Source of the DNA: an uncultured Gammaproteobacteria bacterium
Lineage (GTDB): Bacteria; Patescibacteriota; Microgenomatia; Levybacterales; UBA12049
NCBI GenBank assembly: GCA_964637955.1
Contig: CAZWXQ010000002.1
Location: 7,782 to 71,781 of the forward strand
Direction: 5' to 3'
DNA: 64,000 bases
Every line of letters starts with the position of its first letter. The stretch's first letter is position 1. Under the pieces are notes generated by a model. That model was not told the origin of the DNA. It saw only the letters and a list, made by a program, of their open reading frames with translations, and ran no database searches. The position numbers and the translations under genes are program-made. Below are positions 6,134 through 18,880 of this stretch, piece after piece.

Positions 6134-7249
6134 ATGAATATAAATAAATGGTCAACAAATAAAAAGTTATTGGCAATTTTAGGAATAGTACTTATTATTG
6201 GTGGAATTATTACTACTATTCTTATAGTTCAAAAAAGACAGGATGGAAGAGCTAAAGCTGAAAAATCTACTACGCTTTCACTTACGCCAGCAACTCAGTC
6301 AGTCCCAAGCGATGGAAATACGAGTCTTGATATAAATATTGATCCAGGTAAAAACCAGGTTAATTTAGTAAAGATAACTTTGAAATATGATAAAGATAGA
6401 TTTATCGTACTTGCTAATCAATTTACTCTTAATTCTGATTCAGGTATGACCATTCTTAACGGACCTGTTGTGTCTGAAGGAAGCTTTTCAGTTGTATTAG
6501 GAACCGGGAGTGATCCGACAAAAGTTATTCAAAGCGTCCAAAAGCTTGGAAAATTAGATTTGCATGTTAAAGCTACAGCACCGCTTGGATCTTCTGAGGT
6601 TTCCTTTGATTATGCACAGACTGAGGTTCGCTCAATTCAAGCTAATGATGCGTTTAACGAAAATGTATTATCTAGCGCTACACCTGCAACTATAACTATT
6701 GAAGCAGTCTGTCGGCCAAATATCTCTACTTGTTCTTGGGACGAGCTTGAAGGAGCTTCTTCATATCATTATGTAATTACAAATGTTACTGATAAAGTTG
6801 AATTTTCTAAAGGGGACACTACCGAAAATTCTATTGATTTTACTTCCATTCCTGGAAAAAATTATAAATGTGAAGTTACAGCAAAAAATTCTTGTGGTGG
6901 AGTTGGGGAGGCTGGAGTTGCGAATAATACTTGCGCGCTTCCGTCTCAATCGCCTACACCTACCACGCCTGGAAATACATCAACGCCAACTCCAACTCCT
7001 ACGAATGGTCCTTCTAGTACACCTACTCCTACGACACCAGGATCATCTGTAACGCCCACGCCTACAACACCTGGTGTAACCTCAACGCCCACGCCTACAT
7101 CTTCTATTATAAGCTCTCCTACGCCGACCAGTGAGTTTGGGGTTAGTCCTATTCCTTCGCTTCCACCGACTGGAAATCCAGTAGTGCTTGGTGGCGTCGT
7201 AGGGGCATTGTTTATAATTATCGGAGGAATAGCACTTTTACTTCTATAA
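6134..7249 (+). CDS. cell-surface cohesin-like domain protein with FN3-like module, PT-linker and C-terminal LPPTG sortase-type sorting signal
   Basis: N-terminal TM/signal; region VNLVKITLKYDKDRFIVL...GKLDLHVKATAPLGSSEVSFD resembles cohesin beta-sandwich motifs; CSWDELEGASSYHYVITNV FN3-like; PT repeats; ends SLPPTGNPVVLGGVVGALFIIIGGIALLLL. Confidence 0.5.
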   Translation: MNINKWSTNKKLLAILGIVLIIGGIITTILIVQKRQDGRAKAEKSTTLSLTPATQSVPSDGNTSLDINIDPGKNQVNLVKITLKYDKDRFIVLANQFTLNSDSGMTILNGPVVSEGSFSVVLGTGSDPTKVIQSVQKLGKLDLHVKATAPLGSSEVSFDYAQTEVRSIQANDAFNENVLSSATPATITIEAVCRPNISTCSWDELEGASSYHYVITNVTDKVEFSKGDTTENSIDFTSIPGKNYKCEVTAKNSCGGVGEAGVANNTCALPSQSPTPTTPGNTSTPTPTPTNGPSSTPTPTTPGSSVTPTPTTPGVTSTPTPTSSIISSPTPTSEFGVSPIPSLPPTGNPVVLGGVVGALFIIIGGIALLLL

Positions 7250-7301: not shown

Positions 7302-8849
7302 CTAGATTATATTTAGAGGAGGAACTTTTTGGTCGATTCCTAAAAATGTTTCAACGTCTTGTCTAGAAATATTTACAAGTTCTTCTTTTTTCTTATCTTC
7401 TGGACAGAATTGTTTGTAAAGAGTAGGAAGCATGACTGTAATAAAATCGTTTAAAGGAATAGATTTGGTTGCCTCGATAACTTTTTTAATATTTGCTGGA
7501 TCTTGATAAAGATACATATCAAGTGCAGTTGCTGAGACTCTTTCGCCGTTATGTTCAAGAAATGCTAAATGTGGTCTATATAATATGAAGTCATCAGTTA
7601 TGCTCGCATTTGCATCATTTGCTGATTTTTCATCTCCAACTTCCTTCATCATTTCTATGTATTTTTCCTTCATTTCAGTAAGATAAGATGTTTGACTTGG
7701 GCCTCCTCCTAAGATCAGGCCGTAATAAAAGGAAAGTACGGTAAATGTTAGAAGTAGACTTGGAATTATTTCTTTATTTAAAATCGCCTTCTCAATGTCT
7801 TTTGGTGTAAGAGTTAATTCATAATTTTTATTTTTATTAACTAATTTATTTCCTTCACGTTGTAATTGAAATCTCATTCCATCATCCTTTGAGTATCCCC
7901 AGAAAAGAAATGTTCCTGATGCTTTATCAGCACTAATTGAGCCTGTAACTCCGTTAAAATATTTTTCTATTAGATCAAGATAGGATGAATTAAATATGAA
8001 CTTATGTACAGGAGTTTCCTGGTTTAGATGATATCTCAGAAGCAAGTTTAATAGAATTTTTTCTTGAGAAAGCATAATGTAATTAGGAATTTGGCTTTCT
8101 TTGAATGAGGGGAATAGTTTTCTCCAAAGATAATAATTAACTATAGTTAATTGGTCTGAGTAATCAGCTCCAGTCATTGCATGTGGATTGCTAAAGATAG
8201 AAGTGGTTAATTTATCTAAGATTTGTTTATGCTCATCGCTTAAATTAGATTCTCGTCTAACGTTCTCAATTTTACTTCGCATCTCCTTTATTTCGCTTGC
8301 GCTATAAGGTGCGCTATACATAACAGTTTGAGGATCTTTTGATCTGCTGAAGAATGAAATATTGTTGTCAATGATTTGATCATCTTTGAAAGTATGGAAT
8401 TGAAATCCTCTTGAGAAAGATAAAACATTATCATATGAAGCATTTGTGCATGAAAGAATAATTACGTTAAAAAATCTTGGATCAACATTATTAAACATTG
8501 ACAGAGCTTGACTAAGTCCTGCATTTAAAGTTTGTGCAGTTCCGAGCGGGGCAGTGTGTTCAGCTGTAGATAGGCTATCATTTTTCTTTAATTGATTTTT
8601 TACCTCTGAGGCTACAGTGCTACCTAAAAGCCTTGAAGTTTCAGAAGTAACTACATCGATTATTTCATTTTTTCTTTCATTAAAATCTTTATGAAGATTT
8701 ACTCTATTTTTTTTCTTTACATAATCAAAGTAGGAAAGTTGCCCATAAGTTTCTTTAATTTTTTTAATTTGAGGACGGCTTAAGAAAATACTTTTTTCCA
8801 TCTCTTCGAGCCTTAAAGATGTCACTTTATTGTTGTTTGAGTTCTTCAT
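7302..8849 (-). CDS. hypothetical protein (515 aa)
   Basis: ORF track; no recognisable motif. Confidence 0.4.
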   Translation of the reverse strand: MKNSNNNKVTSLRLEEMEKSIFLSRPQIKKIKETYGQLSYFDYVKKKNRVNLHKDFNERKNEIIDVVTSETSRLLGSTVASEVKNQLKKNDSLSTAEHTAPLGTAQTLNAGLSQALSMFNNVDPRFFNVIILSCTNASYDNVLSFSRGFQFHTFKDDQIIDNNISFFSRSKDPQTVMYSAPYSASEIKEMRSKIENVRRESNLSDEHKQILDKLTTSIFSNPHAMTGADYSDQLTIVNYYLWRKLFPSFKESQIPNYIMLSQEKILLNLLLRYHLNQETPVHKFIFNSSYLDLIEKYFNGVTGSISADKASGTFLFWGYSKDDGMRFQLQREGNKLVNKNKNYELTLTPKDIEKAILNKEIIPSLLLTFTVLSFYYGLILGGGPSQTSYLTEMKEKYIEMMKEVGDEKSANDANASITDDFILYRPHLAFLEHNGERVSATALDMYLYQDPANIKKVIEATKSIPLNDFITVMLPTLYKQFCPEDKKKEELVNISRQDVETFLGIDQKVPPLNII

Positions 8850-9024: not shown

Positions 9025-9115
9025 GGAGGGGTCGCATAGCTGGCCTATTGCACCCAACCGTTTACGGGAAAGTTTCTGCTTCGCAGAAGCGTACGTTCGA
9101 ATCGTACCCCCTCCG
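9025..9115 (+). tRNA. class-II (long variable arm) tRNA-like gene; anticodon arm non-canonical, identity unresolved
   Basis: Acceptor GGAGGGG/CCCCTCC, T-arm GTACG-TTCGAAT-CGTAC, variable-arm hairpin TTTCTGC-TTCG-GCAGAAG, 3-bp D-stem GCA/TGC; but anticodon region CCC-AACCGTTTAC-GGG gives only 3-bp stem/10-nt loop by eye. Confidence 0.45.
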
Positions 9116-9827
9116 CAAATATTCTTGAAGATCTTCTTTAAAGAATAAAAAATTTTATATTTATACCCCTTTAGATCCTCAACCTTAAATTTTATCATTT
9201 TCAAAGTTTGTATTATTCAAAAATAAGAAATGGAGAATGGAGATAACAATTTTGTATTCTAGTCTACCGTATAGATCAAGAAAGAATCGTCATATACATT
9301 TGCATTTTTTCTAATGGGGCTCTTACTTGAAAATATCTATAATCATCAAGTTTCATAAGAAATTTATTTTCATCTCTCCTTTTAACTACAAAAATTACAT
9401 CGTCAGACTTATTTGATTCTATTCTTTTAGCTGCTATTGAGCTATAAATAGGTGAGCTATCGCCTCCGGTTGTGAATTGCCAAATCTAGTATTCGCGTCC
9501 ATGTGTAGCAGGTGATGTAGGCATTTCTTCTACCTTAAATTCGAAATTTATTGGGTTATGACAATTATTTACTAATTTTAATTTACCATACATCTGCATC
9601 AATTTTTTAGAAGAATCTACAATAAAGAGCGAAGGTTTATTATGACATCCTGAGGTGTTTGATTGAGTGGTGGTTTTATTTTGAAGAGCGAACGTTGTTG
9701 CAAGTAATCCAGGGGAAGCTGCTTAAATAACTACTATGTTAAAAAATGATTTTGAGCTAAAGCCGGAATATTTTCTTTTTGCCATTATTTATATAGTAAG
9801 CAGATTGTTTTTGTATTGTCAAATATT

Positions 9828-12650
9828 TTAATCTCCCTGCTTTGTAGAAAGTTCTCTTAGAAATAAGTTGTAATCATCCTGATTAATTTTTCCATCATCG
9901 CTTAAATCAGCTCGAGTTTTTTTCGAAGCATCGCTGCAGTTTTTTGCCGGCAAAAGGTCGCTGTAGCAGTCAGTTATTATGCTAAAGTCTAGAGAATTTA
10001 GTTTATTGTCTAGATTTGAATCACCAATTGTTAATGAAACATTTGGAGCTTGATTTAAAGCATTTTTGGTAATAGTGGGAATTCCCGTTAGCTGTCTTTT
10101 AAGATATTTGTCGATTTTTACTTTAATCGTATAAGGGCTAGTTGGGAGAATGGAGGGAATAGTAACGTCTCCTGAAAAATCACCCGTAGAAGGATTGTAG
10201 GATACGTTTCCTTGACTAGTGCCTACAAGGCTTCCTGAAAAATCAAATAGTTCAACTGTGATTACTCTTACAGCAGTGAGAGGATTTGGATTTCCAGGAG
10301 CGTTTGGATTTGAGTTATCTCCACCTCGACCAATTCCATGAAGTTTTACACTTGGAAAATGGAGAATTGTTGTGCCTGGAATTGGGGTAGGAATATTTGT
10401 CACTGGAGCACTCGTAAGAATTGGCATAGGACTAGGAGATGGGGTTGGGGTTTTAGTCGGAGTTGGAGATTTTGACGGCGTTGGTGTTTGGGTAACTGGA
10501 TTTGCAGCTTCGATACTATAGCTAACTTGTTTTGTTTTGCTAAATGTTGAGTTAGCACTATTTTCAACAGTAATTTTGGTTAAATATGGGTTCTGATCAG
10601 CGGTAGCGTTTAATGCTGGAGAAGTTACATCTAAAACTACTGTTGTTTGTGCACCTGAAGCCAGCGTAACGCTTGTTCGTCCAAATATAGCTGTCCAGTC
10701 TTCTGGTGGGACACTATTTAAATCAAATGTAGCATCAGGACAGGTAGAGGAGTTGTTGTTTTTTATGGTGATTGAATATCTTACTTTTTCTCCCATTGAT
10801 CCACTAAGCGCAGGTTCTGCAATGATTAAAGAAGGGTCCAATTTTTCACAGGGAGGTGGGCCAATGATAACGCTAAGCGTAACAGACTCCGTATCATGTG
10901 ATAACTGTTTTATAGTGACATCGTTCCTAGTATCAGAAAATGTCATATTGTCTTTAAATGTGGTGTTTAAAAGTCCTCCTCGTCCTGAGCTGTCTGTTTT
11001 ATCTACATCAATAAGATATGTTTGTTTTGTTCTCCATTCATCAGAAATTCCTCCGCCTTCATTAGTCATAGCAGGAGGATTTAAGTCAGAAATTCTAAGA
11101 AGAGCGCCTTCATAAAGTGAAGTTGGACCACCTCCGTCGCCATTATTTTTACTTTTATAATCAAGATAATAATTCCCGCCGTCAGTTGGGCGATCTATTA
11201 TTAGTGTTTGAACTTGATTTGATCTGTTTTTGGAGCCTGAATAGAGGGTATATGTTCCGCTAGTAGTTATGGTTTTTTTATTTGTGCTTGGGAGCCAACC
11301 TAAAAGAATTTTGTTTTTTACATTTGTATGTGAATGATAGTCCCATGCGCCTCCTATGAGATCAAATCTATCGCCATATCTGTAGAGAGTACAACTTCCA
11401 AATGAAGATATTTGTTTTGAACCGCATAAAAAAGCATGTGCATGGGAGAGTCCTAAGCTATGACCAACTTCATGGGCCAAAATTCCTGAATAAAACTTAA
11501 TTGCTGATGCTCCGTCAAGGGGTCCATGGTCGAAGCTATTTAGTCCATCATAATCTCCGTTTAGGAAATGAATTGGTTGAACTATGTTATCTCCAGGAAT
11601 GCCATAGGTAATAGCATTCCAATTGCAGTAGGGACCTACTGTTTCCTGATCATCAATAGAGGGGAAGACATAAGCTCTTATATTATAATCAGCAAAAGTT
11701 TTTCCTCTGCTTGTTGCGATAGGTTTTACCAAATCATTTATGGCTTTTTTAAAGCCTTTGGCGGCCTCTGTTTCTTCATAAATATCGCAAACATCGCGTC
11801 TTGTGTATCCTGGAAGATCGATCCATCCATATACATCATTTATGTCTCCTTGTATCGTGACATTTCCCATAGTCGCATCATTTATGTAATTGGCAACAGA
11901 ATTGGGAGCGCTGAAGTAGATTGTTTCGAGCTGCTGCTTAGTGAAGTTGTCAGTTACATCTGAATCGTCATTTTTAAAATTTACCATAATAACAGCAAGT
12001 TTATTAACTCCCGATGTATTTATTCCCAGAACATCTTGACCTGGTAGAAAATTGATATTTCTTGTCTGAAGATTTTCCTTCCCGATTTTAATTGGAACTA
12101 AAACATTGTCAATTAAATATCCTTCAATTTTTGCACGTCCATCAAAATCAGGTTCAAGACCTTCTCTTATGTAAAGCTCATATGTTCCTGTGCTGTTGCC
12201 TTCAGAGTCGACTGTTTGAAAAATAAGAGTAGGGACTTTAGAGTTATTTTTATTTTTCCTTTTAGGATTATGTTCCTCAACAATCTCTTCAGAGATTACT
12301 CCATTAAGTTCCACTTTTTCTTCAATATTTTTTTGAGCATTAACAGGAAGAGTATTTTTAATATCTTTTGGAATTACTATCAACAGAAATTTTTCAGGAT
12401 CATTTTTGGCAAGAGCTTTCATTTTATCTTTTCTTTTTGAAGAAGCGATAATTTTACCCGTATTGTCCGATTTATTAGAAAGAAGATCTTTCGACAATTC
12501 GCTGACATCATCGCTTAAATCAGCTCGACTTCGTAAATCATTTACATGATCTTTTGAAAGGACAATTATTGCAATTGATGTGAGTATTAAGAGGATTGAA
12601 AAGATTCCAATAGCTGCTCTTTTCCTGGAAAAAGATGTACTACTATTCAT
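9828..12650 (-). CDS. secreted/membrane-anchored metzincin-type zinc metalloprotease with PT-linker and C-terminal dockerin-like module
   Basis: N-terminal TM anchor; HEVGHSLGLSH (HExxHxxGxxH, residues 393-403, nt 11444-11474); domain NATFDLNSVPPEDW...; PT linker TQTPTPSKSPTPTKTPTPSPSP; C-terminal DSNLDNKLNSLD-FSII and DLSDDGKINQDD-YNLFL Ca-loop/helix repeats (D/N at 1,3,5,9,12). Confidence 0.6.
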   Translation of the reverse strand: MNSSTSFSRKRAAIGIFSILLILTSIAIIVLSKDHVNDLRSRADLSDDVSELSKDLLSNKSDNTGKIIASSKRKDKMKALAKNDPEKFLLIVIPKDIKNTLPVNAQKNIEEKVELNGVISEEIVEEHNPKRKNKNNSKVPTLIFQTVDSEGNSTGTYELYIREGLEPDFDGRAKIEGYLIDNVLVPIKIGKENLQTRNINFLPGQDVLGINTSGVNKLAVIMVNFKNDDSDVTDNFTKQQLETIYFSAPNSVANYINDATMGNVTIQGDINDVYGWIDLPGYTRRDVCDIYEETEAAKGFKKAINDLVKPIATSRGKTFADYNIRAYVFPSIDDQETVGPYCNWNAITYGIPGDNIVQPIHFLNGDYDGLNSFDHGPLDGASAIKFYSGILAHEVGHSLGLSHAHAFLCGSKQISSFGSCTLYRYGDRFDLIGGAWDYHSHTNVKNKILLGWLPSTNKKTITTSGTYTLYSGSKNRSNQVQTLIIDRPTDGGNYYLDYKSKNNGDGGGPTSLYEGALLRISDLNPPAMTNEGGGISDEWRTKQTYLIDVDKTDSSGRGGLLNTTFKDNMTFSDTRNDVTIKQLSHDTESVTLSVIIGPPPCEKLDPSLIIAEPALSGSMGEKVRYSITIKNNNSSTCPDATFDLNSVPPEDWTAIFGRTSVTLASGAQTTVVLDVTSPALNATADQNPYLTKITVENSANSTFSKTKQVSYSIEAANPVTQTPTPSKSPTPTKTPTPSPSPMPILTSAPVTNIPTPIPGTTILHFPSVKLHGIGRGGDNSNPNAPGNPNPLTAVRVITVELFDFSGSLVGTSQGNVSYNPSTGDFSGDVTIPSILPTSPYTIKVKIDKYLKRQLTGIPTITKNALNQAPNVSLTIGDSNLDNKLNSLDFSIITDCYSDLLPAKNCSDASKKTRADLSDDGKINQDDYNLFLRELSTKQGD

Positions 12651-13283
12651 TTACTGCGAAATAACTTGATTTGTCGGAGAAGGAGATAACGTGTCTTCTG
12701 AAGGAAGGTTCTCAATATAGCCTGAGACCATATCTTTTAGTACTGATTTATCTGTGCCAGAAGCTTGAATGGAAGTTTTAGGTAAAAAATTAATTTGAGC
12801 AGGGGAGCTTCCTGTTTTCGTAAATGTGATAACCGCAACGGTTCCTTTTCCTTGTTTTCCTTTTTGATTTGGTTTCATACCGCTCCAAAATTTAATTCTA
12901 CTATCTGCTGGAGTAATAATTTTTTGTTTTACATCAGCATCAGCGAAAAAGTTACCAGGCTTTATATCAATTATATTTATAAGTTTTGGATCGTAGCTCA
13001 TTTCTAGTTGTGCGAATGTGACCATGTTATTATTTGTATCTATATTTACATCTACTTCATATGCGCCAGATGAAGTGCTAGGTCTAACATCTTCAGAAAA
13101 CATAAGGCTGGTTTGGGCAACATCTTTAGCGACGTTTTCGGATGCTGTAGGTTTATAAAAAGTATTTTTTGCAGTCAGACTTACTACCAAAAGAATCACG
13201 GTAACAATTACAAGGACGGCAACGAGAAGCCAAGTCTTGTTCATTTTTGCTTTCGGTTGTTGTTGGTTTGGGACATTTTCCAT
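12651..13283 (-). CDS. membrane-anchored cohesin-domain protein
   Basis: N-terminal signal-anchor WLLVAVLVIVTVILLVVSL; LEMSYDPKLINIIDIKPGNFF and GTVAVITFTKTGSSPAQINF closely match type-I cohesin motifs (cf. C. thermocellum CipA FVYSYDPNVLEIIEIKPGELI / ATIVAKVKSGAPNGLSVIKF from memory). Confidence 0.55.
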   Translation of the reverse strand: MENVPNQQQPKAKMNKTWLLVAVLVIVTVILLVVSLTAKNTFYKPTASENVAKDVAQTSLMFSEDVRPSTSSGAYEVDVNIDTNNNMVTFAQLEMSYDPKLINIIDIKPGNFFADADVKQKIITPADSRIKFWSGMKPNQKGKQGKGTVAVITFTKTGSSPAQINFLPKTSIQASGTDKSVLKDMVSGYIENLPSEDTLSPSPTNQVISQ

Positions 13284-13287
13284 ATTT

Positions 13288-16026
13288 TTACAGTGGAAGC
13301 TGTGAACCTCCTTGATTTGCTACTTCTTTTAGCCAAAGCGTAAAGTCATCTTCATCAACTATTCCATTATCGTCTAAATCTGCATACGTTTGATAGTTGG
13401 GATTTACATCACAAGCTGATCTGTCCTGAGAGTAGATAGAGCAGCTCACTAAAATATTGTAGTCGTTTAAGTCTAAATTATTGTTTGATCTATCTATTTT
13501 ATTTATATCTCCAGTTATCATATCTAAAGTTTGGGCTGTTTTATTCATTCCCCGAGTTAAGGTAACAGATCCAGGTAGTTGACCTCTGAGAACCTGAGGG
13601 CCCTCAACGTAAACATTATAAATTCCTGATTGGAAATTATCGCCAAAACTTAGTGCTCCTTCAAACTTTCCACTTGCAGGATTATAGGTGACTGTATGGT
13701 CTTGAAATACATCTGCAGGGGTATTACTTGCGGCATTATACATTCTGACAGTTAAATTTCTGTTGGCACGTTCCGGATTTTTATTTCCACCGATTGGAGT
13801 TCTGGCAGTAGTTCCAATTCCGTCAATTCCAATAATTAAATTTAGATTTGTTTGCCCTGGAATACTAGTGATTGTTGGTGGATTACTAATTACGGGTTCC
13901 TCACTAATGGTTGGATCCTGGCTGATAACTGGGTCATTACTTATAACAGGATCTTGGCTAATGGTTGGATCAATAGCCTGTACATCATAAGTTACGTTCT
14001 CAGATATAAGAGGGCCATTTGTTCTTTGAATGTTAACTGTGAAGGTGGCGGGTCCATTCTCTGCATTATTAGGAGAGCTGACTGACATGGTAGTGCTTTT
14101 TGTATTTCCAGGTGCTATGTCTAGTGAATCTTTTTCAAGAGTAGAATCCCATCCGATAACACCAATTTTACTTATGTCAAAAGTGGCGTTATCACACTGC
14201 GCAGTATCATTATTTTTAATTTCAATGGTGAAATCTTTTTTGTCTCCTGCATTTCCACTTCTGGAATTTGGCTTTACATCTAGAGTTGGTCTATTTTTAA
14301 CACAAGTTGGAGCTGGGTCAGGAGTTGGATCTGTTCCGCCACCGCCTGATCCTCCTCCAGAAGGCTTAGTAGTCTTGTAGGCGTCTGTTTGGAAGTTATT
14401 GCCTTCATTCGATTCTGAGATATTTCCTACTGAATCAACAAAAACAGAAGCAATATAATCGCCCGCATTTGGCCTTGGCATATTGGTAAAGTGACTAGAT
14501 AAAGGTATCTCTTCATTCGGAGACACTACTTGCGTTACTGTCCAGGTTTTAGTAGCTCCACCGTCCCTATTAATTACTTTAACCTGAAAATCACCTGTGA
14601 TTTGTGCATTTCCAATATTTTTAATTTTTACAATTGGGTCAGATGTTCCTGTATCAACTCCGCCTGGAAATGTGAATGCTGAAACTACGAGATCTCTTGT
14701 GGCTGCTGGTTGTGTTTCTATCTTTTTAATTCCAAAATGAACAGTTCCACTCGCTCCTAAATCAATATTGGCTCCATCAGCAGTAGGATTGTTTGTTATG
14801 TTTTCTGAAGGAATTAAGTAATTTAGCTTTGTTGAGGCATAACCAGAAGGTATTAATAATTTTACTGTAATTTTATTTGCATTCGTTTTTGTTGTAACAG
14901 AATAATTATTTCCGTTCTTTGTGCTTGCGTCACCCGCAGCCTGCACAGTGTATGGGCTAGTGAAAAGTGCTTCAGTGCCATTTTTTTTACCATCATTCGC
15001 TGTTCCTCCTCCCGCACCATTATCTATAAAGACATATCCAGTGAATGAGAGTGTTTTCGTAGAACTAATTGGTGCGCATTCATTTGAAGAGTTGCAATTT
15101 CCAGATCTACATACTTGAGATTCCGGGGCAGAACAGTCTTGAGTTGTTGCTACCTCTCTGCAGTCAGTGTAATTTGGTTTTGTGGTCAGAGTTTTAGTTT
15201 GAGTTCCTGATCCTGGGCCACATGTTCCGCCATCTGGTTTAGGTATGCTGTTTTTTGCCTTACAAGTGCCTAATTTTGCACCAGCTGTGCAGTTCGGAAT
15301 AATAGAACATTTATGAGTATCTGTATTGCAAGTTTTGTCTGTTCCACAACCTCCGCAGGCTAAGCTAGTTCCACCAACGGTGAATGTTCCACAATAATTA
15401 TTTGCATTACAAAGACTATTTTTATATGTTGTTAAGTCTGAACATTTATCGGTGGTGGGTGCGCAGTATTTAAAATTTGGATTTGATGAACATTGGCTAT
15501 TAGAGGTACATTTTATGCAGTTAGTTGAAACATTTTCGTCGCAGTAAGATCTTAGACCAAATTGTACACTTCTGTCACCTCTGGTAATGTCAAAGCTGGT
15601 AGTTGTGCCTTTTTTTGTAACTGGCGAACTGGAAGGATTATCATAGAATATGTGAGTATAATTAAGTGTTCTATTTGGAGCAGTAATTTTTACTCTATAA
15701 TAATCTTCGCCAAGTTCATATAAGTCTGGGTCATTAGGTTTTAGGGTAATTGGAATTTCGAGTATAGATCCTGAACAGCTAGTCTGCGATGTTTTAGTGA
15801 GAGTTCTTGTTCCGCTTGCATCAGTTACCTGGACAGTAAAACTGCCATTATAGCAAGAATCTCCGTCTCTGCGACCATTAATATTGTAGTCGCTGTTACC
15901 GTTATCATCTACAAGCGTGGCAACATTAAGCCTGTAATTTGCTGCATGTGCTTTTTGAGGAATAATTAGAGATGCTAAGCTAAATAATAGAGGAAATAAC
16001 AATAGAGCAATAGTAATTTTTTTCAC
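13288..16026 (-). CDS. giant secreted adhesin-like protein: Cys-rich repeats, CARDB-like domain, DPxIS tandem repeats, C-terminal dockerin-like module
   Basis: Signal peptide MKKITIALLLFPLLFSLASLIIPQKAHA; >40 Cys in EGF-like spacing; CARDB-like DLVVSAFTFPGG...IKNIGNAQITGDFQVKV...VDSVGNISESNEGNN; C-terminal DLDDNGIVDEDD-FTLWLKEV (perfect Ca-loop) preceded by degenerate repeat DINKIDRSNNNLDLNDYNILV. Confidence 0.55.
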   Translation of the reverse strand: MKKITIALLLFPLLFSLASLIIPQKAHAANYRLNVATLVDDNGNSDYNINGRRDGDSCYNGSFTVQVTDASGTRTLTKTSQTSCSGSILEIPITLKPNDPDLYELGEDYYRVKITAPNRTLNYTHIFYDNPSSSPVTKKGTTTSFDITRGDRSVQFGLRSYCDENVSTNCIKCTSNSQCSSNPNFKYCAPTTDKCSDLTTYKNSLCNANNYCGTFTVGGTSLACGGCGTDKTCNTDTHKCSIIPNCTAGAKLGTCKAKNSIPKPDGGTCGPGSGTQTKTLTTKPNYTDCREVATTQDCSAPESQVCRSGNCNSSNECAPISSTKTLSFTGYVFIDNGAGGGTANDGKKNGTEALFTSPYTVQAAGDASTKNGNNYSVTTKTNANKITVKLLIPSGYASTKLNYLIPSENITNNPTADGANIDLGASGTVHFGIKKIETQPAATRDLVVSAFTFPGGVDTGTSDPIVKIKNIGNAQITGDFQVKVINRDGGATKTWTVTQVVSPNEEIPLSSHFTNMPRPNAGDYIASVFVDSVGNISESNEGNNFQTDAYKTTKPSGGGSGGGGTDPTPDPAPTCVKNRPTLDVKPNSRSGNAGDKKDFTIEIKNNDTAQCDNATFDISKIGVIGWDSTLEKDSLDIAPGNTKSTTMSVSSPNNAENGPATFTVNIQRTNGPLISENVTYDVQAIDPTISQDPVISNDPVISQDPTISEEPVISNPPTITSIPGQTNLNLIIGIDGIGTTARTPIGGNKNPERANRNLTVRMYNAASNTPADVFQDHTVTYNPASGKFEGALSFGDNFQSGIYNVYVEGPQVLRGQLPGSVTLTRGMNKTAQTLDMITGDINKIDRSNNNLDLNDYNILVSCSIYSQDRSACDVNPNYQTYADLDDNGIVDEDDFTLWLKEVANQGGSQLPL
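13864..13971 (-). repeat. six tandem 18-bp repeats encoding DP(T/V)IS(Q/N/E) inside the adhesin gene
   Basis: Visible tandem periodicity in DNA and protein (DPTISQ DPVISN DPVISQ DPTISE EPVISN PPTITS). Confidence 0.6.
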
Positions 16027-16134: not shown

Positions 16135-16704
16135 ATGATACTTTCAGATCGAGATATAAAAAAAGCATTAAAAGAAAAGAGGATTGTGATTTCACCGCTT
16201 CCTGATTTTAAAACTCAGCTTGGTAGTTGTTCGATAGATCTTAGGCTTGGAGATACTTTTAGAGTATTTGAACATAGTAAACACTCCTACATAGATCCTT
16301 CAAAAAAAGATTTTAGTAATGAAATTACGCGTGAGATAAAACTTAAGAAAAATGATTCATTTATGATGCAGCCAGGTGATTTTGTTCTCGCAGTTACTCT
16401 AGAAAAAGTTACAATCCCAGCTGATCTTATGGGTAGACTTGAGGGTCGTTCATCTCTTGGTCGCCTTGGAATTGTGGTTCATAGTACGGCTTCTATTTTC
16501 GATCCTGGTTGGGATGGGAATCCAGTTTTGGAGCTTGGAAATTTGGGACGCATGGCAGTGTCTCTTAAAGTAGGAATGAGAATTTGTGCTATGACTTTTG
16601 AAGAATTAACGAGCCCAGCTGAAACACCTTACACAAATAAAAAATTTGCCAAATATAAATTTCAGGACAGTCCAGTTGAATCAAGAATACATGAAGAGAA
16701 ATAA
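16135..16704 (+). CDS. dcd: dCTP deaminase
   Basis: Near-collinear similarity to Dcd (MILSDRDIKKAL, IDLRLG, GRSSLGRLG, FDPGWDGNPVLE, AKYKFQ C-terminus). Confidence 0.8.
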   Translation: MILSDRDIKKALKEKRIVISPLPDFKTQLGSCSIDLRLGDTFRVFEHSKHSYIDPSKKDFSNEITREIKLKKNDSFMMQPGDFVLAVTLEKVTIPADLMGRLEGRSSLGRLGIVVHSTASIFDPGWDGNPVLELGNLGRMAVSLKVGMRICAMTFEELTSPAETPYTNKKFAKYKFQDSPVESRIHEEK

Positions 16705-16795
16705 TTTTCAATTTGAAATTTTAAATTTTTAATGAAATCCAAATAATTTAATTTTAAATTTTGAAACATTGAAAACTAAGAATTAAAATTAAATC

Positions 16796-17491
16796 ATGAA
16801 ACAGGACGTAGAGTACGAAGTAAAATTTAAACAAACCTTAAAAAGAAATCCTCATAAAGGTTTGTATGTAGCTTTCGAAGGAATTGATGGAGCAGGGAAA
16901 AGTGTTCAAGTAGAGCTTTTAGAAAAATATCTCAATAAGGTCGGTAAGAAAAGTCTTATTACATTCCAACCAAGAAGAGATGGTCCTGTAGGGAAGCTCA
17001 TTAATGATATTCTTCAGGGAAATGTAAAAGTTCCATCTGTTTCACTTCAATATCTTTTTACTGCAGACAGAATTATTGATCACCTAAATCATATAGAGCC
17101 AGCACTTAAAGAGGGAAAAGTGGTAATTTCTCACAGATGTATGTGGAGCAATTTGCCATACGGGCTTTTAGATAAGCAGCTAGTAGATTATGAATCTGAC
17201 GAAGCTAGAATTATTGATGTAGCACACGGGCTTTTTTCTCACTATAATCAATTTATAATACCTGATCTGACTTTCTATCTTAAGATTTCTGCGAAAATTG
17301 GAGTAGAAAGACTTGAAAAGAGACACGCGGGGCTTGAGATGTACGAGAAGAAAGGTAAGATGGAAAAAGTCGCAAAAGGATATGAGTGGGAAATTAATAG
17401 ATTTCCTGATGAATTTATAACGATTGATGGGGAAGAAGCGCCTGAAAATGTTTCAAGAGAAGTTATAAAACACGTTGAAAAATATTTATGA
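16796..17491 (+). CDS. thymidylate-kinase-family P-loop kinase, paralog 1
   Basis: P-loop FEGIDGAGKS, DR(I)ID motif after YLFTADR, paralogous to next gene. Confidence 0.6.
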   Translation: MKQDVEYEVKFKQTLKRNPHKGLYVAFEGIDGAGKSVQVELLEKYLNKVGKKSLITFQPRRDGPVGKLINDILQGNVKVPSVSLQYLFTADRIIDHLNHIEPALKEGKVVISHRCMWSNLPYGLLDKQLVDYESDEARIIDVAHGLFSHYNQFIIPDLTFYLKISAKIGVERLEKRHAGLEMYEKKGKMEKVAKGYEWEINRFPDEFITIDGEEAPENVSREVIKHVEKYL

Positions 17492-18162
17492 GTAAAACAT
17501 ATCACGTAGAATTTGATCTTGATTTTAGGAGAAATGAATTTCCAGGAAAATTTATAGTTCTTGAGGGAATTGAGGCATCTGGAAAAACGACTCAGGCAAA
17601 TATTCTGGAACAGAAATTTCCTGGAGCATTCCATACGAAAAATCCTACTTCGAGTAATGAGATTGGGAAATTTGTTCGAGAAAGAGTTCTCGGAGGGAAA
17701 ACTGATATCCCACCGGTAGCATATCAATATTTGTTCGCGGCGGACAGAGAAATTGATCAGCAGAAAGTTATTGAAAATTTGAAAAAGGGTGTAACTGTAA
17801 TTTCTGATAGATATTTTTGGTCAAGTGTGGCATATGGAATTTCAGATCGAAGCGGAACAGATTATGAGAATTTTGAGGAGGTTTCAGTGGTATCGCTTAG
17901 TCTTCTTTCTATGTATCACCAATTTATCATTCCTGATCTTACAATTTATCTGGACGTTTCACTTGAAGAGTCTTTAAAGCGCATGGAAGGATCAGAGAAG
18001 CACACTGAAATTTATGATAATCATGAGACAAATGTAAAAGTGAAAAAAGGTTATGATTGGTTAATACAGAAATTTCCTGAAGAATTTAGTATAGTTGATG
18101 CAAATAGAAGTGAAGAAGAAGTAACTCATGAAATTCTAAAATTAGTTGAAGGAATTAGTTAG
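17488..18162 (+). CDS. thymidylate-kinase-family P-loop kinase, paralog 2
   Basis: P-loop LEGIEASGKT, YLFAADREID, HQFIIPDLTIYLDVS, KKGYDWLIQKFPEEF all parallel paralog 1; 4-nt overlap with it. Confidence 0.6.
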   Translation: MSKTYHVEFDLDFRRNEFPGKFIVLEGIEASGKTTQANILEQKFPGAFHTKNPTSSNEIGKFVRERVLGGKTDIPPVAYQYLFAADREIDQQKVIENLKKGVTVISDRYFWSSVAYGISDRSGTDYENFEEVSVVSLSLLSMYHQFIIPDLTIYLDVSLEESLKRMEGSEKHTEIYDNHETNVKVKKGYDWLIQKFPEEFSIVDANRSEEEVTHEILKLVEGIS

Positions 18163-18230
18163 TAATTTAAAATTTGAAATTCTAAATTTGAAATGAATTT
18201 TAAATATTAAAAATTAAAAAATTAAGTATC

Positions 18231-18304
18231 GAATGTCGCCGCTAGAGCGGGATCCCGATTGAAAACTATCATCGGGAAAAATTAAAAATTATAAATTGAA
18301 AATT
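18231..18304 (+). repeat. double-hairpin repeat element copy 1 (CCGCTAGAGCGG + CCCGATTGAAAACTATCATCGGG + AAAATTAAAAATT...)
   Basis: Near-identical to 57936-57990 (reverse orientation) and similar to 28951-28997; hairpins show compensatory changes. Confidence 0.6.
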
Positions 18305-18331
18305 TGAAAGAGATTCTGAATCAAGTTCAGA

Positions 18332-18880
18332 ATGACAACTATGATTATTGCACCAAAAGAATTACTTAAATTAGTTAAAAAAGATAAATTAGTTGAAAAT
18401 TTATCCGAGCGAGAACTTACAAATCCTGAAGGTGCTGGATTTGATCTGCGACTTGGTGAGGTTTTTAAAATTTCCGGAAAAGCTTTTCTAGGAGAAACCC
18501 ACAGGCAAACTCCTGATATCGAGTCGATAAAAGTATGGGATCCAAAGAAATTGAGCTCAATCAAGATTAAACCTGGAGATTTTTATCTGGTTAAAACCAT
18601 CGAAAAAATAAATTTGCCTCTCGATCTTTCAGCTGTAATTATTCCTAGGACCACAACTTTCAGATCTGGTCTCTTTATTCGAACCGGACCAATTCAGCCG
18701 GGGTATAGTGGAGAACTTACATTTGGTCTGAAAAATGAAGGTCCAGTGACAGTAGAAATCGAAATGGGAGCTAGGTTTGTCCATCTTATTTTCCACGAGA
18801 TAAAAGGAACGGGTGCTAAATACCGCGGCCAATGGCAAGGCGGCCGAGTTAGCGCAACCAAAAGAGAGAAGCAAGTCTAA
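18332..18880 (+). CDS. dCTP deaminase/dUTPase-superfamily protein (second Dcd-like paralog)
   Basis: GFDLRLG, IQPGYSGELTFGLKNEG, FVHLIFHEI parallel Dcd motifs but sequence diverged from dcd at 16135. Confidence 0.55.
   Translation: MTTMIIAPKELLKLVKKDKLVENLSERELTNPEGAGFDLRLGEVFKISGKAFLGETHRQTPDIESIKVWDPKKLSSIKIKPGDFYLVKTIEKINLPLDLSAVIIPRTTTFRSGLFIRTGPIQPGYSGELTFGLKNEGPVTVEIEMGARFVHLIFHEIKGTGAKYRGQWQGGRVSATKREKQV

What the first reader, a model, noticed from the sequence alone, without database searches (positions are those of the whole stretch)
9828..16026. Cohesin-dockerin surface-assembly operon pairing a metzincin protease and a giant CARDB/Cys-rich protein
Three tightly packed minus-strand genes share one layout. 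The first (13288-16026) is a 912-aa signal-peptide protein with EGF-like Cys-rich repeats, a CARDB-like domain, DPxIS tandem repeats and a C-terminal dockerin-type Ca-loop/helix pair. The second (12651-13283) is a 210-aa signal-anchored protein whose core (MSYDPKLINIIDIKPG, GTVAVITFTKTGSSPAQINF) matches cohesin motifs. The third (9828-12650) is a 940-aa signal-anchored protein with a HEVGHSLGLSH metzincin zinc site, a PT linker and two canonical dockerin repeats (DSNLDNKLNSLD-FSII, DLSDDGKINQDD-YNLFL). Stop and start codons abut (12650/12651), so the genes are very likely one transcript. A cell-surface cohesin could therefore capture the dockerin-tagged protease and adhesin. In a small-genome, possibly episymbiotic bacterium this would be a candidate host-attachment or host-surface-remodelling machine rather than a cellulosome.
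Basis: partly seen in the sequence, partly recalled or inferred. Interest (0 to 1): 0.8.

Follow-up and report, generated by a model that had tools for sequence, protein, structure and literature searches.

The report
Cohesin-dockerin surface display operon, CPR bacterium
A small-genome (Levybacteria-like) bacterium encodes a membrane-anchored "socket" protein (cohesin) between two secreted proteins, an adhesin-like protein and a zinc protease, that each end in the matching "plug" (dockerin); this looks like the cellulosome's attachment parts reused to hang non-cellulolytic proteins on the cell surface, which is a real but not unprecedented kind of system.

Summary
Three abutting minus-strand genes encode A (13288-16026, 912 aa), B (12651-13283, 210 aa) and C (9828-12650, 940 aa). 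B scores above Pfam's cohesin threshold, and its confident AlphaFold model matches only cohesins in the PDB. C scores above the dockerin threshold. A escapes Pfam's dockerin model, but a profile of its C-terminal family hits type II X-dockerin dyads first. A and C share a roughly 340-aa C-terminal cassette: NEW3 domain, Pro-rich linker, X-like Ig module and dockerin.

Across 46 non-redundant related loci, mostly titled Levyibacteriota or Patescibacteria, 31 cohesin genes have a dockerin-bearing gene directly upstream on the same strand. The N-terminal "heads" are swapped (CARDB, VWA/SdrD_B, protease) while the anchor cassette is kept. A second, divergent cohesin with an invariant LPPTG sorting motif lies at 6134-7249 (+).

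The protease has an invariant HExxHxxGxxH site but reaches no family threshold; it is M6-like. "EGF-like" is unsupported.

Cohesin-dockerin binding and any host-attachment role are inferred, not shown. This is a new member of the non-cellulosomal cohesin-dockerin class, of moderate interest.

The parts
13288..16026 (-). Gene A: a secreted 912-aa adhesin-like cargo protein. In order it has a signal peptide, a Cys-rich region, a CARDB domain, a NEW3 domain, a DPxIS linker, an X-like module and a dockerin.
   Evidence: The ORF is. The same gene is called in an independent contig, L001. Pfam finds CARDB and NEW3. There is a single N-terminal hydrophobic segment followed by AHA|A.
15067..15549 (-). 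Cys-rich region of A, aa 160-320, with 20 Cys.
   Evidence: The Cys count is. There is no EGF or other Pfam match at E<=1.
14386..14697 (-). CARDB domain of A, aa 444-547.
   Evidence: Pfam PF07705 scores 32.1 bits against a gathering score of 22.7.
13972..14310 (-). NEW3-like Ig domain of A, aa 573-685. This is where the cassette shared with C begins.
   Evidence: Pfam NPCBM_assoc scores 22.5 bits, just below its gathering score of 24.4. BLASTP aligns A 573-907 with C 599-939 at E 1e-23.
13864..13971 (-). Linker of six DPxIS hexapeptide repeats in A, aa 686-721.
   Evidence: Found by regular expression on the translation. Tandem Repeats Finder does not detect it at the DNA level.
13306..13863 (-). 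X-like beta module (aa 722-835) plus dockerin (aa 836-907) of A.
   Evidence: A profile of 24 such modules (A7) has type II X-dockerin dyads as its five best PDB hits: 2b59_B at 7.8e-9, then 4wi0_B, 3kcp_A, 5g5d_B and 4u3s_B. Ca loop 2 is canonical; loop 1 has a 4-aa insertion. The module is 86% identical to that of a VWA-headed protein in L003.
12651..13283 (-). Gene B: a 210-aa membrane-anchored protein with a single cohesin. The TM helix is aa 16-37 (13173-13238) and the cohesin is aa 57-190 (12714-13115).
   Evidence: Pfam Cohesin scores 31.1 bits against 24.1. The AlphaFold model has mean pLDDT 85.6, a helix at 16-37 and a beta-sandwich. The 50 best Foldseek PDB hits are all cohesins. The family profile hits only cohesins in the PDB. 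There are 64 homologues, 63 of which carry PF00963.
9828..12650 (-). Gene C: a 940-aa zinc metalloprotease carrying the same NEW3, PT linker, X-like module and dockerin cassette.
   Evidence: The ORF is. It has 16 homologues of about 940 aa. Dockerin_1 scores 25.0 bits against 22.9. The family profile hits X-dockerin dyads and type I dockerins in the PDB.
11214..11993 (-). Catalytic domain of C, aa 220-479. The zinc site HEVGHSLGLSH is at aa 393-403 (11442-11474).
   Evidence: H393, E394, H397, G400 and H403 are invariant in 14 homologues. The TIGR03296 M6 domain model matches 13 of 14 members over most of the model, but always below its cut-off.
9831..10373 (-). X-like beta module (aa 760-872) plus dockerin (aa 873-940) of C.
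   Evidence: The AlphaFold model gives a beta domain at 760-870 with pLDDT about 83. It gives helices at 886-895, 908-911 and 924-936 with pLDDT 50-60. Pfam Dockerin_1 covers 876-932. Both 12-residue loops fit the pattern DxNxD(N/G)xLxxxD.
6134..7249 (+). A second, divergent cohesin protein of 371 aa. In order it has an N-terminal hydrophobic segment, a cohesin (about aa 45-190), a Cys-containing Ig-like domain, a PT linker, LPPTG (7160-7174) and a hydrophobic tail.
   Evidence: hhalign of its family (A5) against the B family (A1) gives probability 96.9% and E 1.7e-10 over 178 columns. LPPTG is invariant in 10 homologues. The homologue in L005 has a weak precomputed Pfam Cohesin hit. The gene is conserved beside the locus in L003-L007, L009, L010, L013 and L017.
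9276..9788 (-). Broken fourth gene: a homologue of an intact 182-aa small secreted protein that follows the protease gene in L003. Here it is interrupted by in-frame TAA (9723-9725) and TAG (9486-9488).
   Evidence: tblastn against the L003 protein gives E 1e-32 and shows both stops. The sequence is identical in the independent contig L001.

Best explanation

Proposed mechanism:
- A, the adhesin-like head, and C, the zinc protease, are exported through Sec.
- Each ends in the same stalk-and-plug cassette: NEW3 Ig domain, Pro-rich linker, X-like Ig module and Ca-binding dockerin.
- After export, the dockerin is held non-covalently by a single-cohesin anchor on the producer's own envelope.
- One anchor is B, tethered by an N-terminal transmembrane helix and encoded between the two cargo genes. 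A second is probably the 371-aa cohesin at 6134-7249, attached to the wall through an LPPTG signal.
- The heads are exchangeable cassettes on a conserved anchor. The lineage can therefore change what it displays (adhesins, lectins, proteases, occasional glycosidases) without changing the attachment device.

Shown here: domain identities, the cohesin fold, operon packing, conserved cohesin/dockerin gene adjacency, and head swapping.

Inferred: actual cohesin-dockerin binding, which dockerin binds which cohesin, signal-peptide cleavage, sortase anchoring, and any role in attaching to or remodelling a host cell.
For: Cohesin:
- Pfam scores above the gathering threshold.
- The fold model is confident, and all 50 best PDB matches are cohesins, with target-normalised TM-score up to 0.75 to 1ohz_A.
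- The family profile hits only cohesins in the PDB.

Dockerins:
- Pfam scores above threshold in C, in 10 of 14 protease homologues and in 16 of 49 neighbouring cargo proteins, best E 9e-17.
- Profiles of both module types hit solved X-dockerin dyads and type I dockerins.
- The Asp/Gly positions of the Ca loops are invariant across 73 distant members.

Shared cassette: A 573-907 aligns with C 599-939 at E 1e-23.

Gene order:
- Of 46 non-redundant cohesin genes of this family, 31 have a dockerin-bearing ORF directly upstream on the same strand, with a gap of at most 200 nt. 12 have one directly downstream, and 33 have one on at least one side.
- Three genomes keep two tandem cargo-cohesin pairs in the same order.

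Head swapping: the last 190 aa of A and of a VWA-headed protein in L003 are 86% identical, while their heads are unrelated.

Breadth: the 190-aa module occurs in 1449 cluster representatives, almost always at the extreme C-terminus of proteins of 200-1440 aa. Their heads are diverse.

Export signals: A has MKK...AHA|A; B has a helix at 16-37 preceded by Lys residues.

Second cohesin with an invariant LPPTG.
Against: - No binding was tested.
- The dockerin segment of the C model has only pLDDT 50-60.
- Pfam does not call A's dockerin, and its first Ca loop is non-canonical.
- 13 of 46 cohesin genes have no detected dockerin neighbour, for example L004. Two of those 13 lie at a contig end.
- Cargo-type and protease-type dockerins are only 27-34% identical. 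They may not share one cohesin partner.
- The LPPTG protein lacks the usual positively charged tail. A crude motif scan found no sortase in the 64-kb window.
Confidence: 0.7

Rival explanations
1. A genuine, minimal cellulosome: the cohesin-dockerin pairs assemble polysaccharide-degrading enzymes on the cell. This is how cohesin and dockerin proteins of another Microgenomates lineage were interpreted in the literature.
For: Bell et al. (bioRxiv 10.1101/2021.08.21.457207) read expressed cohesin and dockerin proteins of Cand. Shapirobacterales as cellulosome components. In the wider module family, a minority of heads are carbohydrate-active. Of 73 sampled, 5 have CBM_4_9, 2 have GH26, 1 has GH5, 1 has GHL15 and 3 have Ricin-B lectin domains. 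Of 49 neighbouring cargo proteins, 2 have DUF4434.
Against: In this window the two cargo proteins are a CARDB/Cys-rich protein and a metalloprotease. Neither has a glycoside hydrolase or CBM hit. Every anchor carries one cohesin, so there is no multi-enzyme scaffoldin. The commonest recognisable heads near the cohesin genes are VWA, SdrD_B, CARDB and NEW3.
Confidence: 0.05
2. The modules are real but do not pair with each other. The dockerins would act as Ca-dependent stabilising or ligand-binding tails, for example binding host glycans or foreign cohesins. The membrane cohesin would bind something else.
For: Many organisms carry only cohesins or only dockerins (own knowledge of surveys of non-cellulosomal modules). 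13 of 46 cohesin genes lack an adjacent dockerin gene. In a Saccharibacterium, an essential dockerin-domain protein was discussed without a cohesin partner (PMC10633639). A's first Ca loop is aberrant.
Against: The strict same-strand adjacency in 31 of 46 loci, often with overlapping or abutting stop and start codons, is hard to explain without a shared function. The 3' anchor module and the cohesin gene stay together while heads are exchanged.
Confidence: 0.15
3. B is not a display anchor. It would be a dedicated membrane-bound maturation or holding factor, a chaperone- or inhibitor-like partner that binds the C-terminal module during or after export and later releases the cargo.
For: Cargo and cohesin genes pair 1:1, and tandem pairs occur in L005, L010 and L015. 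B's cohesin is separated from the membrane by only about 20 residues. A SurA-N-like protein is encoded in the conserved neighbouring block, though it scores below threshold.
Against: No cohesin is known to act as a chaperone or inhibitor (own knowledge). The weak NCBIfam BamI 'protease inhibitor' hit covers only B's TM region, at E 0.018 and 14.9 bits against a cut-off of 180. The long stalk (NEW3, linker, X module) fits projection of a head away from an anchor point.
Confidence: 0.1

Closest known systems
Type II cohesin / X-dockerin anchoring of the Clostridium (Acetivibrio) thermocellum and A. cellulolyticus cellulosomes (CipA or ScaA XDoc bound to SdbA-, OlpB- or ScaB-type cohesins; PDB 2B59, 4U3S, 4WI0, 3KCP)
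   Same: An Ig-like X module directly precedes a two-loop Ca-binding dockerin at the extreme C-terminus. Profiles of both window modules hit these dyads first. The partner is a cell-envelope-anchored cohesin whose job is attachment to the cell, not enzyme integration. Type II cohesins are among the best Foldseek matches to B.
   Different: The anchor here is an N-terminal transmembrane helix, or LPPTG, rather than SLH repeats. The cargo is an individual adhesin-like protein or protease, not a multi-cohesin scaffoldin. B's cohesin is compact, about 135 aa, and by sequence profile it is nearest to type I cohesins such as 4ums, 2vn5 and 1g1k. The dockerin has two invariant Cys between the repeats. 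The host is a CPR bacterium.
Ruminococcus flavefaciens ScaE: a single, sortase-anchored cohesin that binds the X-dockerins of ScaB and of the adhesin CttA (own knowledge; not tested here)
   Same: It is a monovalent cohesin with an LPXTG-type C-terminal signal that holds X-dockerin-bearing proteins, including a non-enzymatic adhesin, on the wall. This matches the 371-aa LPPTG cohesin and the adhesin-like cargo A.
   Different: The R. flavefaciens system is part of a fibre-degrading cellulosome. Here there is no cellulolytic context, there is an additional TM-anchored cohesin, and cargo and cohesin genes are paired in one operon.
Non-cellulosomal cohesin and dockerin modules (for example Archaeoglobus fulgidus cohesin 2XDH; Clostridium perfringens cohesin-like modules 2JH2 in toxin/glycosidase complexes)
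   Same: The modules have the cohesin fold and Ca-loop dockerins and are used outside cellulose degradation. 2xdh and 2jh2 are among the significant structural matches to B.
   Different: Those examples are scattered modules on enzymes. Here the locus is syntenic, with dedicated single-cohesin anchors, a conserved NEW3/X stalk, and head exchange across many genomes.
Cohesin and dockerin proteins reported in other CPR lineages: Cand. Shapirobacterales metaproteome (10.1101/2021.08.21.457207) and the essential dockerin protein SEML1_0315 of a Saccharibacterium (PMC10633639)
   Same: They are from the same superphylum, and the first is from the same supergroup (Microgenomates). Such proteins are expressed, and one is essential for growth on the host.
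   Different: Those papers list domains only and interpret them as cellulosome or glycan-targeting parts. They do not describe the cargo-cohesin operon, the X-dockerin cassette or the head swapping. I did not test homology to those specific proteins.
M6 (immune inhibitor A / PrtV), M66 (StcE) and M11 (gametolysin) zinc metallopeptidases
   Same: The zinc site is of the extended HExxHxxGxx(H/D) type. The M6 domain model aligns over 260 of its 286 positions in C and matches 13 of 14 homologues. M66 matches 7 of 14 protease homologues, and M11 matches 3 of the 49 neighbouring dockerin-bearing ORFs. These enzymes typically cut extracellular or surface proteins (own knowledge).
   Different: All scores are below the curated cut-offs. 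The third ligand here is His. No conserved Met-turn is evident. The protein also carries a long N-terminal helical region and the NEW3/X-dockerin cassette.

Membership tests
Cohesin (Pfam PF00963) | Family HMM score at or above the curated gathering score | tested here: met
   B scores 31.1 bits against 24.1, at E 3.1e-7, over residues 77-190. 63 of 64 homologues carry PF00963.
Cohesin (Pfam PF00963) | Nine-stranded beta-sandwich (jelly-roll) fold like solved cohesins | tested here: met
   In the AlphaFold model, residues 57-190 have pLDDT above 94 and are all-beta. All 50 best Foldseek PDB hits are cohesins, with target-normalised TM-score up to 0.75.
Cohesin (Pfam PF00963) | Binds a dockerin | not testable with these tools
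   Only conserved gene adjacency supports this. No complex model or binding assay was possible.
Dockerin (Pfam PF00404) | Family HMM score at or above the gathering score | tested here: met
   C scores 25.0 bits against 22.9. 10 of 14 protease homologues hit, best E 5.9e-10.
Dockerin (Pfam PF00404), protein A | Family HMM score at or above the gathering score | tested here: not met
   A has no Dockerin_1 hit at E<=1. However, a profile of 24 homologous modules with A as first row hits solved dockerins and X-dockerins at 7.8e-9 to 1e-3. 28 of 73 wider family members pass Pfam.
Dockerin (Pfam PF00404) | Two duplicated 12-residue EF-hand-like Ca loops (D1, N/D3, D5, D12), each followed by a helix | tested here: inconclusive
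   C has DSNLDNKLNSLD and DLSDDGKINQDD, both canonical. In A, loop 2 (DLDDNGIVDEDD) is canonical but loop 1 has a 4-residue insertion. The model has helices at 886-895 and 924-936, but only at pLDDT 50-60.
Cellulosome | Scaffoldin with multiple cohesins that integrates several enzymes | tested here: not met
   B and all 64 homologues are about 200 aa with one cohesin. The 371-aa protein also has one.
Cellulosome | Dockerin-bearing glycoside hydrolases or CBMs as cargo | tested here: not met
   A and C have no GH or CBM hit. Such heads are a small minority in the wider family.
Type II cohesin / X-dockerin pair | Ig-like X module immediately N-terminal to the dockerin | tested here: met
   Profile alignments to 2b59_B, 3kcp_A, 4wi0_B, 4u3s_B and 5k39_B span the end of the X module plus the dockerin. 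In the model, the beta domain at 760-870 has pLDDT about 83.
Type II cohesin / X-dockerin pair | Type II cohesin elaborations (extra helix and beta-flaps, about 170 aa) | tested here: inconclusive
   Type II cohesins give the best Foldseek E-values, but type I cohesins give higher target-normalised TM-scores. By sequence profile type I comes first. The domain is only about 135 aa, with one short helix at 125-127.
Metzincin metallopeptidases | Extended zinc motif HExxHxxGxxH | tested here: met
   HEVGHSLGLSH lies at 393-403. H393, E394, H397, G400 and H403 are invariant in 14 homologues.
Metzincin metallopeptidases | Conserved Met-turn downstream of the third His | tested here: inconclusive
   No Met downstream of H403 is among the invariant or nearly invariant columns. 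The window protein has no Met for about 125 residues after H403. The catalytic-domain model is too poor, pLDDT 40-80, to look for a structural equivalent.
Peptidase families M6 / M10 / M12 / M66 | Family HMM at or above the curated cut-off | tested here: not met
   TIGR03296 scores 25.9 bits against 110.8. M66 scores 17.3 against 20.6. M10 scores 15.5 against 24. Reprolysin_4 scores 15.3 against 22. Across homologues, none was reported above a cut-off.
Sortase-anchored (LPXTG) surface protein, 371-aa cohesin | C-terminal LPXTG, a hydrophobic stretch, then a positively charged tail, with a sortase in the genome | tested here: inconclusive
   LPPTG and the hydrophobic stretch are invariant in 10 homologues. 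The protein ends ...ALLLL with no basic tail. No TLxTC motif was found in window ORFs. The rest of the genome was not available.

The most novel reading that the evidence does not exclude
The locus could be the core of a lineage-wide, cassette-exchangeable 'plug-and-socket' display system by which Levybacteria and other Microgenomates episymbionts present host-specific adhesins and a wall- or surface-protein-cutting protease. Two orthogonal dockerin specificities would be involved: cargo type binding the TM cohesin, and protease type binding the LPPTG cohesin. Head swapping on a constant anchor would then be the genetic mechanism that retunes host range. This would be a cohesin-dockerin system acting in cell-cell parasitism rather than polymer degradation.
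Probability: 0.2. Interest if true: 0.7.

Novelty: new member of a known kind. Interest (0 to 1): 0.42.

Why it matters
CPR bacteria are thought to live attached to host cells, but the proteins that make and remodel that contact are mostly unknown.

This locus offers a concrete, testable set of parts: two small anchor proteins and a roughly 190-aa C-terminal tag that marks what the cell displays. The tag occurs in at least 1449 protein clusters. It can therefore serve as a search handle to list the surface 'payloads' of a whole uncultured lineage, including adhesin-like heads, lectins, proteases and a few glycosidases.

It also corrects a tendency to read any cohesin or dockerin in metagenomes as evidence of cellulose degradation.

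For protein engineers, small monovalent cohesin/X-dockerin pairs from a distant phylum could give new orthogonal binding pairs.

It does not change our understanding of how cohesin-dockerin systems work.

Tried and rejected
- Foldseek of the full-length C model against the PDB returned only generic Ig-like matches (sialidase linker domains, pilins, RbmA). It said nothing about the catalytic domain, whose model is poor.
- The word-indexed protein search with the X-dockerin profile A7 returned only 6 proteins and was too insensitive. The exhaustive HMMER search replaced it.
- The word-indexed search with the protease returned only 16 homologues, because PT-rich words saturated the candidate list.
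It was repeated with 13 closer sequences.
- The promoter and terminator scans were no better than shuffles, 24 promoter-like sites against 23.0 expected. They give no evidence for or against a single transcript. A perfect TTGACA box lies about 45 nt upstream of A's start, but its -10 element is weak.
- Tandem Repeats Finder did not see the DPxIS repeat at the DNA level.
- 'EGF-like' repeats are rejected: no Pfam hit at E<=1.
- The weak BamI 'metzincin inhibitor' hit to B is rejected. It covers only the TM segment and is far below the cut-off.
- Cluster look-ups gave no names or organism. Taxonomy therefore rests on the record titles of related loci. 18 of the 39 titles read 'uncultured Gammaproteobacteria/Pseudomonadales'. 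I regard these as placeholder labels, because those loci share the Levybacteria-type synteny; this is inference.
- A metagenome scan for the tRNA-like element found nothing.

Full report
**1. Observation**

A is 13288-16026 (912 aa, GTG start). B is 12651-13283 (210 aa). C is 9828-12650 (940 aa).

B's TAA stop is immediately followed by C's ATG. A's stop is separated from B's ATG by four bases. An independent short-read assembly, L001, carries the same three genes with the same gene calls.

All quoted peptide motifs are present. A has 20 Cys between residues 160 and 320 and six DPxIS-type hexapeptides at 686-721. A, B and C each have one N-terminal hydrophobic segment.

**2. Domain identity**

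- **Pfam.** B scores above the Cohesin gathering score (31.1 against 24.1 bits). C scores above the Dockerin_1 score (25.0 against 22.9). A scores above the CARDB score (32.1 against 22.7), with a near-threshold NEW3/NPCBM_assoc hit.
- **Homologues of B.** B has 64 homologues of about 200 aa, and 63 of them carry PF00963.
- **Fold of B.** With a 29-sequence alignment, AlphaFold gives mean pLDDT 85.6, a TM helix at 16-37 and an all-beta domain at 57-190 with pLDDT above 94. Its 50 best PDB matches are all cohesins of types I, II and III and non-cellulosomal ones, with target-normalised TM-score up to 0.75. A sequence profile of the family also hits nothing but cohesins.
- **Dockerin of A.** Pfam does not call it. 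Its first Ca loop carries a 4-residue insertion shared by its closest relatives. A profile of 24 homologous C-terminal modules with A as first row nevertheless hits solved dockerins. The five best hits are type II X-module-plus-dockerin dyads (2b59_B at 7.8e-9, then 4wi0_B, 3kcp_A, 5g5d_B and 4u3s_B), and the alignments run from the end of the X module through both dockerin repeats.
- **Dockerin of C.** The protease-family profile gives the same picture. In the full-length C model, the NEW3 domain (about 600-715, pLDDT about 88) and the X-like beta domain (760-870, about 83) are credible. The dockerin shows the expected helices (886-895, 908-911, 924-936), but only at pLDDT 50-60.

**3. A shared cassette**

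A and C are unrelated in their N-terminal two thirds. They share a roughly 340-aa C-terminal cassette: A 573-907 aligns with C 599-939 at 26% identity and E 1e-23.

The cassette consists of:
- a NEW3-like Ig domain with two conserved Cys;
- a Pro-rich linker (DPxIS repeats in A, a PT run in C);
- an X-like Ig module;
- a dockerin with two invariant Cys between its repeats.

**4. Comparative genomics**

A scan of one genome per species found 39 loci encoding relatives of B. Informative titles name Candidatus Levyibacteriota or Levybacteria (8 loci), 'Patescibacteria group' (4), and single Parcubacteria, Saccharimonadales and Limnocylindrales records. Eighteen third-party (TPA) assemblies are titled 'uncultured Gammaproteobacteria/Pseudomonadales'. 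I take those as placeholder labels, because the loci share the same synteny; this is inference.

I built HMMs of the cohesin and of the dockerin tail and searched all ORFs of the fetched loci.
- Of 46 non-redundant cohesin genes, 31 have a dockerin-bearing ORF directly upstream on the same strand (gap at most 200 nt, often 1-15 nt). Twelve have one directly downstream, and 33 have one on at least one side.
- Three genomes (L005/L008, L010, L015) carry two tandem pairs in the same order: a CARDB-type cargo of about 1100 aa, a cohesin of about 189 aa, a VWA/SdrD_B cargo of about 800 aa, and a cohesin of about 207 aa. In L005/L008 and L015 the protease gene follows.
- The whole block always sits next to a dcd-tmk-tmk-dcd-thyA nucleotide-metabolism cluster.

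**5. Head swapping**

In L003, B's orthologue is 77% identical, but the upstream gene encodes a VWA + SdrD_B head instead of the CARDB/Cys-rich head. Its last 190 residues are 86% identical to A's. That is more conserved than the cohesin itself (77%) or the protease (50% overall).

At the DNA level, similarity starts at window position 13849, the beginning of the X module, and runs through the cohesin gene. Cargo-type and protease-type modules are only 27-34% identical to each other, but each type is conserved across genomes at 51-86%. This suggests two specificities (inference).

An exhaustive HMMER search with A's last 190 residues found 1449 cluster representatives at E<=1e-3 and 732 at E<=1e-10. 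The module is almost always at the extreme C-terminus of proteins of 200-1440 aa.

| Pfam family | Hits among 73 sampled members |
|---|---|
| Dockerin_1 | 28 |
| NEW3 | 11 |
| SdrD_B | 8 |
| FixG_C Ig | 7 |
| CBM_4_9 | 5 |
| Cohesin | 4 |
| Ricin-B lectin | 3 |
| GH26 | 2 |
| CARDB | 2 |
| Subtilase, GH5, VWA, beta-helix, cupredoxin | 1 each |

Most heads have no recognised domain. Among the 49 cargo ORFs next to cohesin genes, the commonest hits are NEW3 (16), Dockerin_1 (16), SdrD_B (10), VWA (9), CARDB (4) and Peptidase_M11 (3).

**6. A second cohesin**

The 371-aa protein at 6134-7249 (+) has no Pfam hit of its own. A profile of ten homologues aligns to the B-family profile over 178 columns with probability 96.9% and E 1.7e-10. 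The L005 homologue has a weak precomputed Cohesin hit.

After the cohesin come a Cys-containing Ig-like domain, a long PT linker, an invariant LPPTG and a hydrophobic C-terminus. This is a sortase-type sorting signal except for the missing basic tail.

The gene is conserved beside the locus in ten genomes, preceded by a 251-aa Cys/PT-rich secreted protein and a 306-aa protein with sub-threshold SurA-N similarity.

**7. The protease**

HEVGHSLGLSH (393-403) is invariant in its key positions across 14 homologues. Matches to M10, reprolysin, astacin and M43 are confined to this helix.

The only domain-length match is to the M6 domain model TIGR03296. It covers 260 of 286 model positions and is found in 13 of 14 homologues, with best E 7.8e-10, but always far below the cut-off of 110.8 bits. 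M66 gives a sub-threshold match in 7 of 14. No conserved Met-turn is evident.

I therefore call it a zincin with a metzincin-type zinc site, M6-like, with its family unresolved.

**8. Mechanism**

Shown:
- the parts;
- their export signals at sequence level;
- operon packing;
- conserved cohesin/dockerin adjacency;
- modular head exchange.

Inferred:
- A is cleaved after AHA and released from the membrane.
- C is probably cleaved after the conserved R-S-R-A (R40 and A43 are invariant). A similar [GS]-R-A motif follows the hydrophobic segment of the 371-aa family.
- Both cargoes are then retained by Ca-dependent dockerin binding to B's cohesin, about 20 residues above the membrane, and/or to the wall-linked 371-aa cohesin.
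- The NEW3-linker-X stalk projects the head outward.

Which dockerin binds which cohesin is open.

The host-attachment or host-remodelling role rests only on three points. The heads are adhesin-type domains and a protease, there are no glycosidases here, and CPR bacteria are generally regarded as episymbionts.

**9. Comparison with what is known**

The molecular parts are bona fide cohesin and dockerin.

The closest functional analogues are the anchoring branch of cellulosomes:
- type II cohesin/X-dockerin, as in C. thermocellum and A. cellulolyticus;
- from my own knowledge, R. flavefaciens ScaE, a single sortase-anchored cohesin that holds X-dockerin proteins, including the adhesin CttA.

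The locus is not a cellulosome, because it has no multi-cohesin scaffoldin and no cellulolytic cargo.

Non-cellulosomal cohesins and dockerins are long known from sequence surveys and a few structures; 2xdh and 2jh2 appear.

Within the CPR, expressed cohesin and dockerin proteins were reported for Cand. Shapirobacterales and read as a cellulosome (10.1101/2021.08.21.457207). An essential dockerin-domain protein was noted in a Saccharibacterium (PMC10633639).

In four full-text searches I found no paper describing the cargo-cohesin operon, the X-dockerin cassette or its head exchange.

**10. Verdict**

It is a new member of a known kind, the non-cellulosomal cohesin-dockerin systems. Its distinctive traits are single-cohesin TM and LPPTG anchors, 1:1 cargo/anchor gene pairs and a conserved NEW3/X stalk.

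Interest is moderate. The locus gives a usable handle on the surface proteome of an uncultured lineage and a cautionary example against equating cohesin or dockerin hits with cellulolysis. The underlying mechanism is familiar, and the key interaction remains untested.

Noticed in passing
window 9025-9117 (+): A tRNA-like gene. It has a 7-bp acceptor stem, a D arm, a long variable arm and a perfect T arm (GTACG-TTCGAAT-CGTAC), but an aberrant anticodon arm (ACCCAACCGTTTACGGGAAAG). ARAGORN does not call it, and Rfam does not match it even at E<=1. It is 100% identical over 112 nt in L003, where the surrounding DNA is only about 81% identical. It is therefore probably a constrained, functional RNA of unknown kind.
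   Followed up: partly
window 9276-9788 (-): The gene after the protease is a homologue of an intact 182-aa small secreted protein in L003. One or two copies of it also follow the cohesin or protease gene in L004 and L006. Here it is interrupted by in-frame TAA (9723-9725) and TAG (9486-9488). The same sequence occurs in an independent assembly. It is probably a pseudogene. It lies about 160 nt from the odd tRNA-like element, and I did not explore any link between them.
   Followed up: partly
window 6134-7249 (+), with 4460-5380 and 5377-6132 upstream: A conserved three-gene block on the opposite strand. It holds a 306-aa protein with sub-threshold SurA-N similarity, a 251-aa Cys- and PT-rich secreted protein, and the 371-aa divergent cohesin with an invariant LPPTG. 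It probably belongs to the same surface system.
   Followed up: yes
window C residues 38-44 (12519-12539) and 371-aa protein residues 37-43 (6242-6262): A shared motif follows the N-terminal hydrophobic segment in both families: D-L-R-S-R-A in the protease family and L-R-G-R-A in the 371-aa family, with the Arg and Ala invariant. It fits the -3/-1 rule of signal peptidase I, but it could mark a dedicated processing step.
   Followed up: no
L031 6172-7845, L035 4435-6027, and 4 of 73 proteins in alignment A8: Some relatives combine a cohesin and the X-dockerin tail in one protein, like adaptor scaffoldins. Short cohesin-dockerin chains may therefore form in some lineages.
   Followed up: no
window 16135-18880 (+): Directly beside the locus is a duplicated nucleotide-salvage set: two dCTP-deaminase-like genes and two thymidylate-kinase-like genes. 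thyA, DHFR and NUDIX genes follow in relatives. This position is conserved in every long related contig.
   Followed up: no
L008-L010, L012, L013, L015-L018, L027, L028, L033, L038-L041, L043 and L044 (record titles): Eighteen third-party (TPA) metagenome-assembled genomes with this Levybacteria-type locus are titled 'uncultured Gammaproteobacteria' or 'Pseudomonadales'. One includes a 785-kb contig (L008). The labels look like placeholders or misclassifications.
   Followed up: no
window 7302-8849 (-): A conserved 515-aa protein with no Pfam or NCBIfam family. It lies between the cohesin-dockerin operon and the LPPTG-cohesin block and is also present in L003. Its function is unknown.
   Followed up: no
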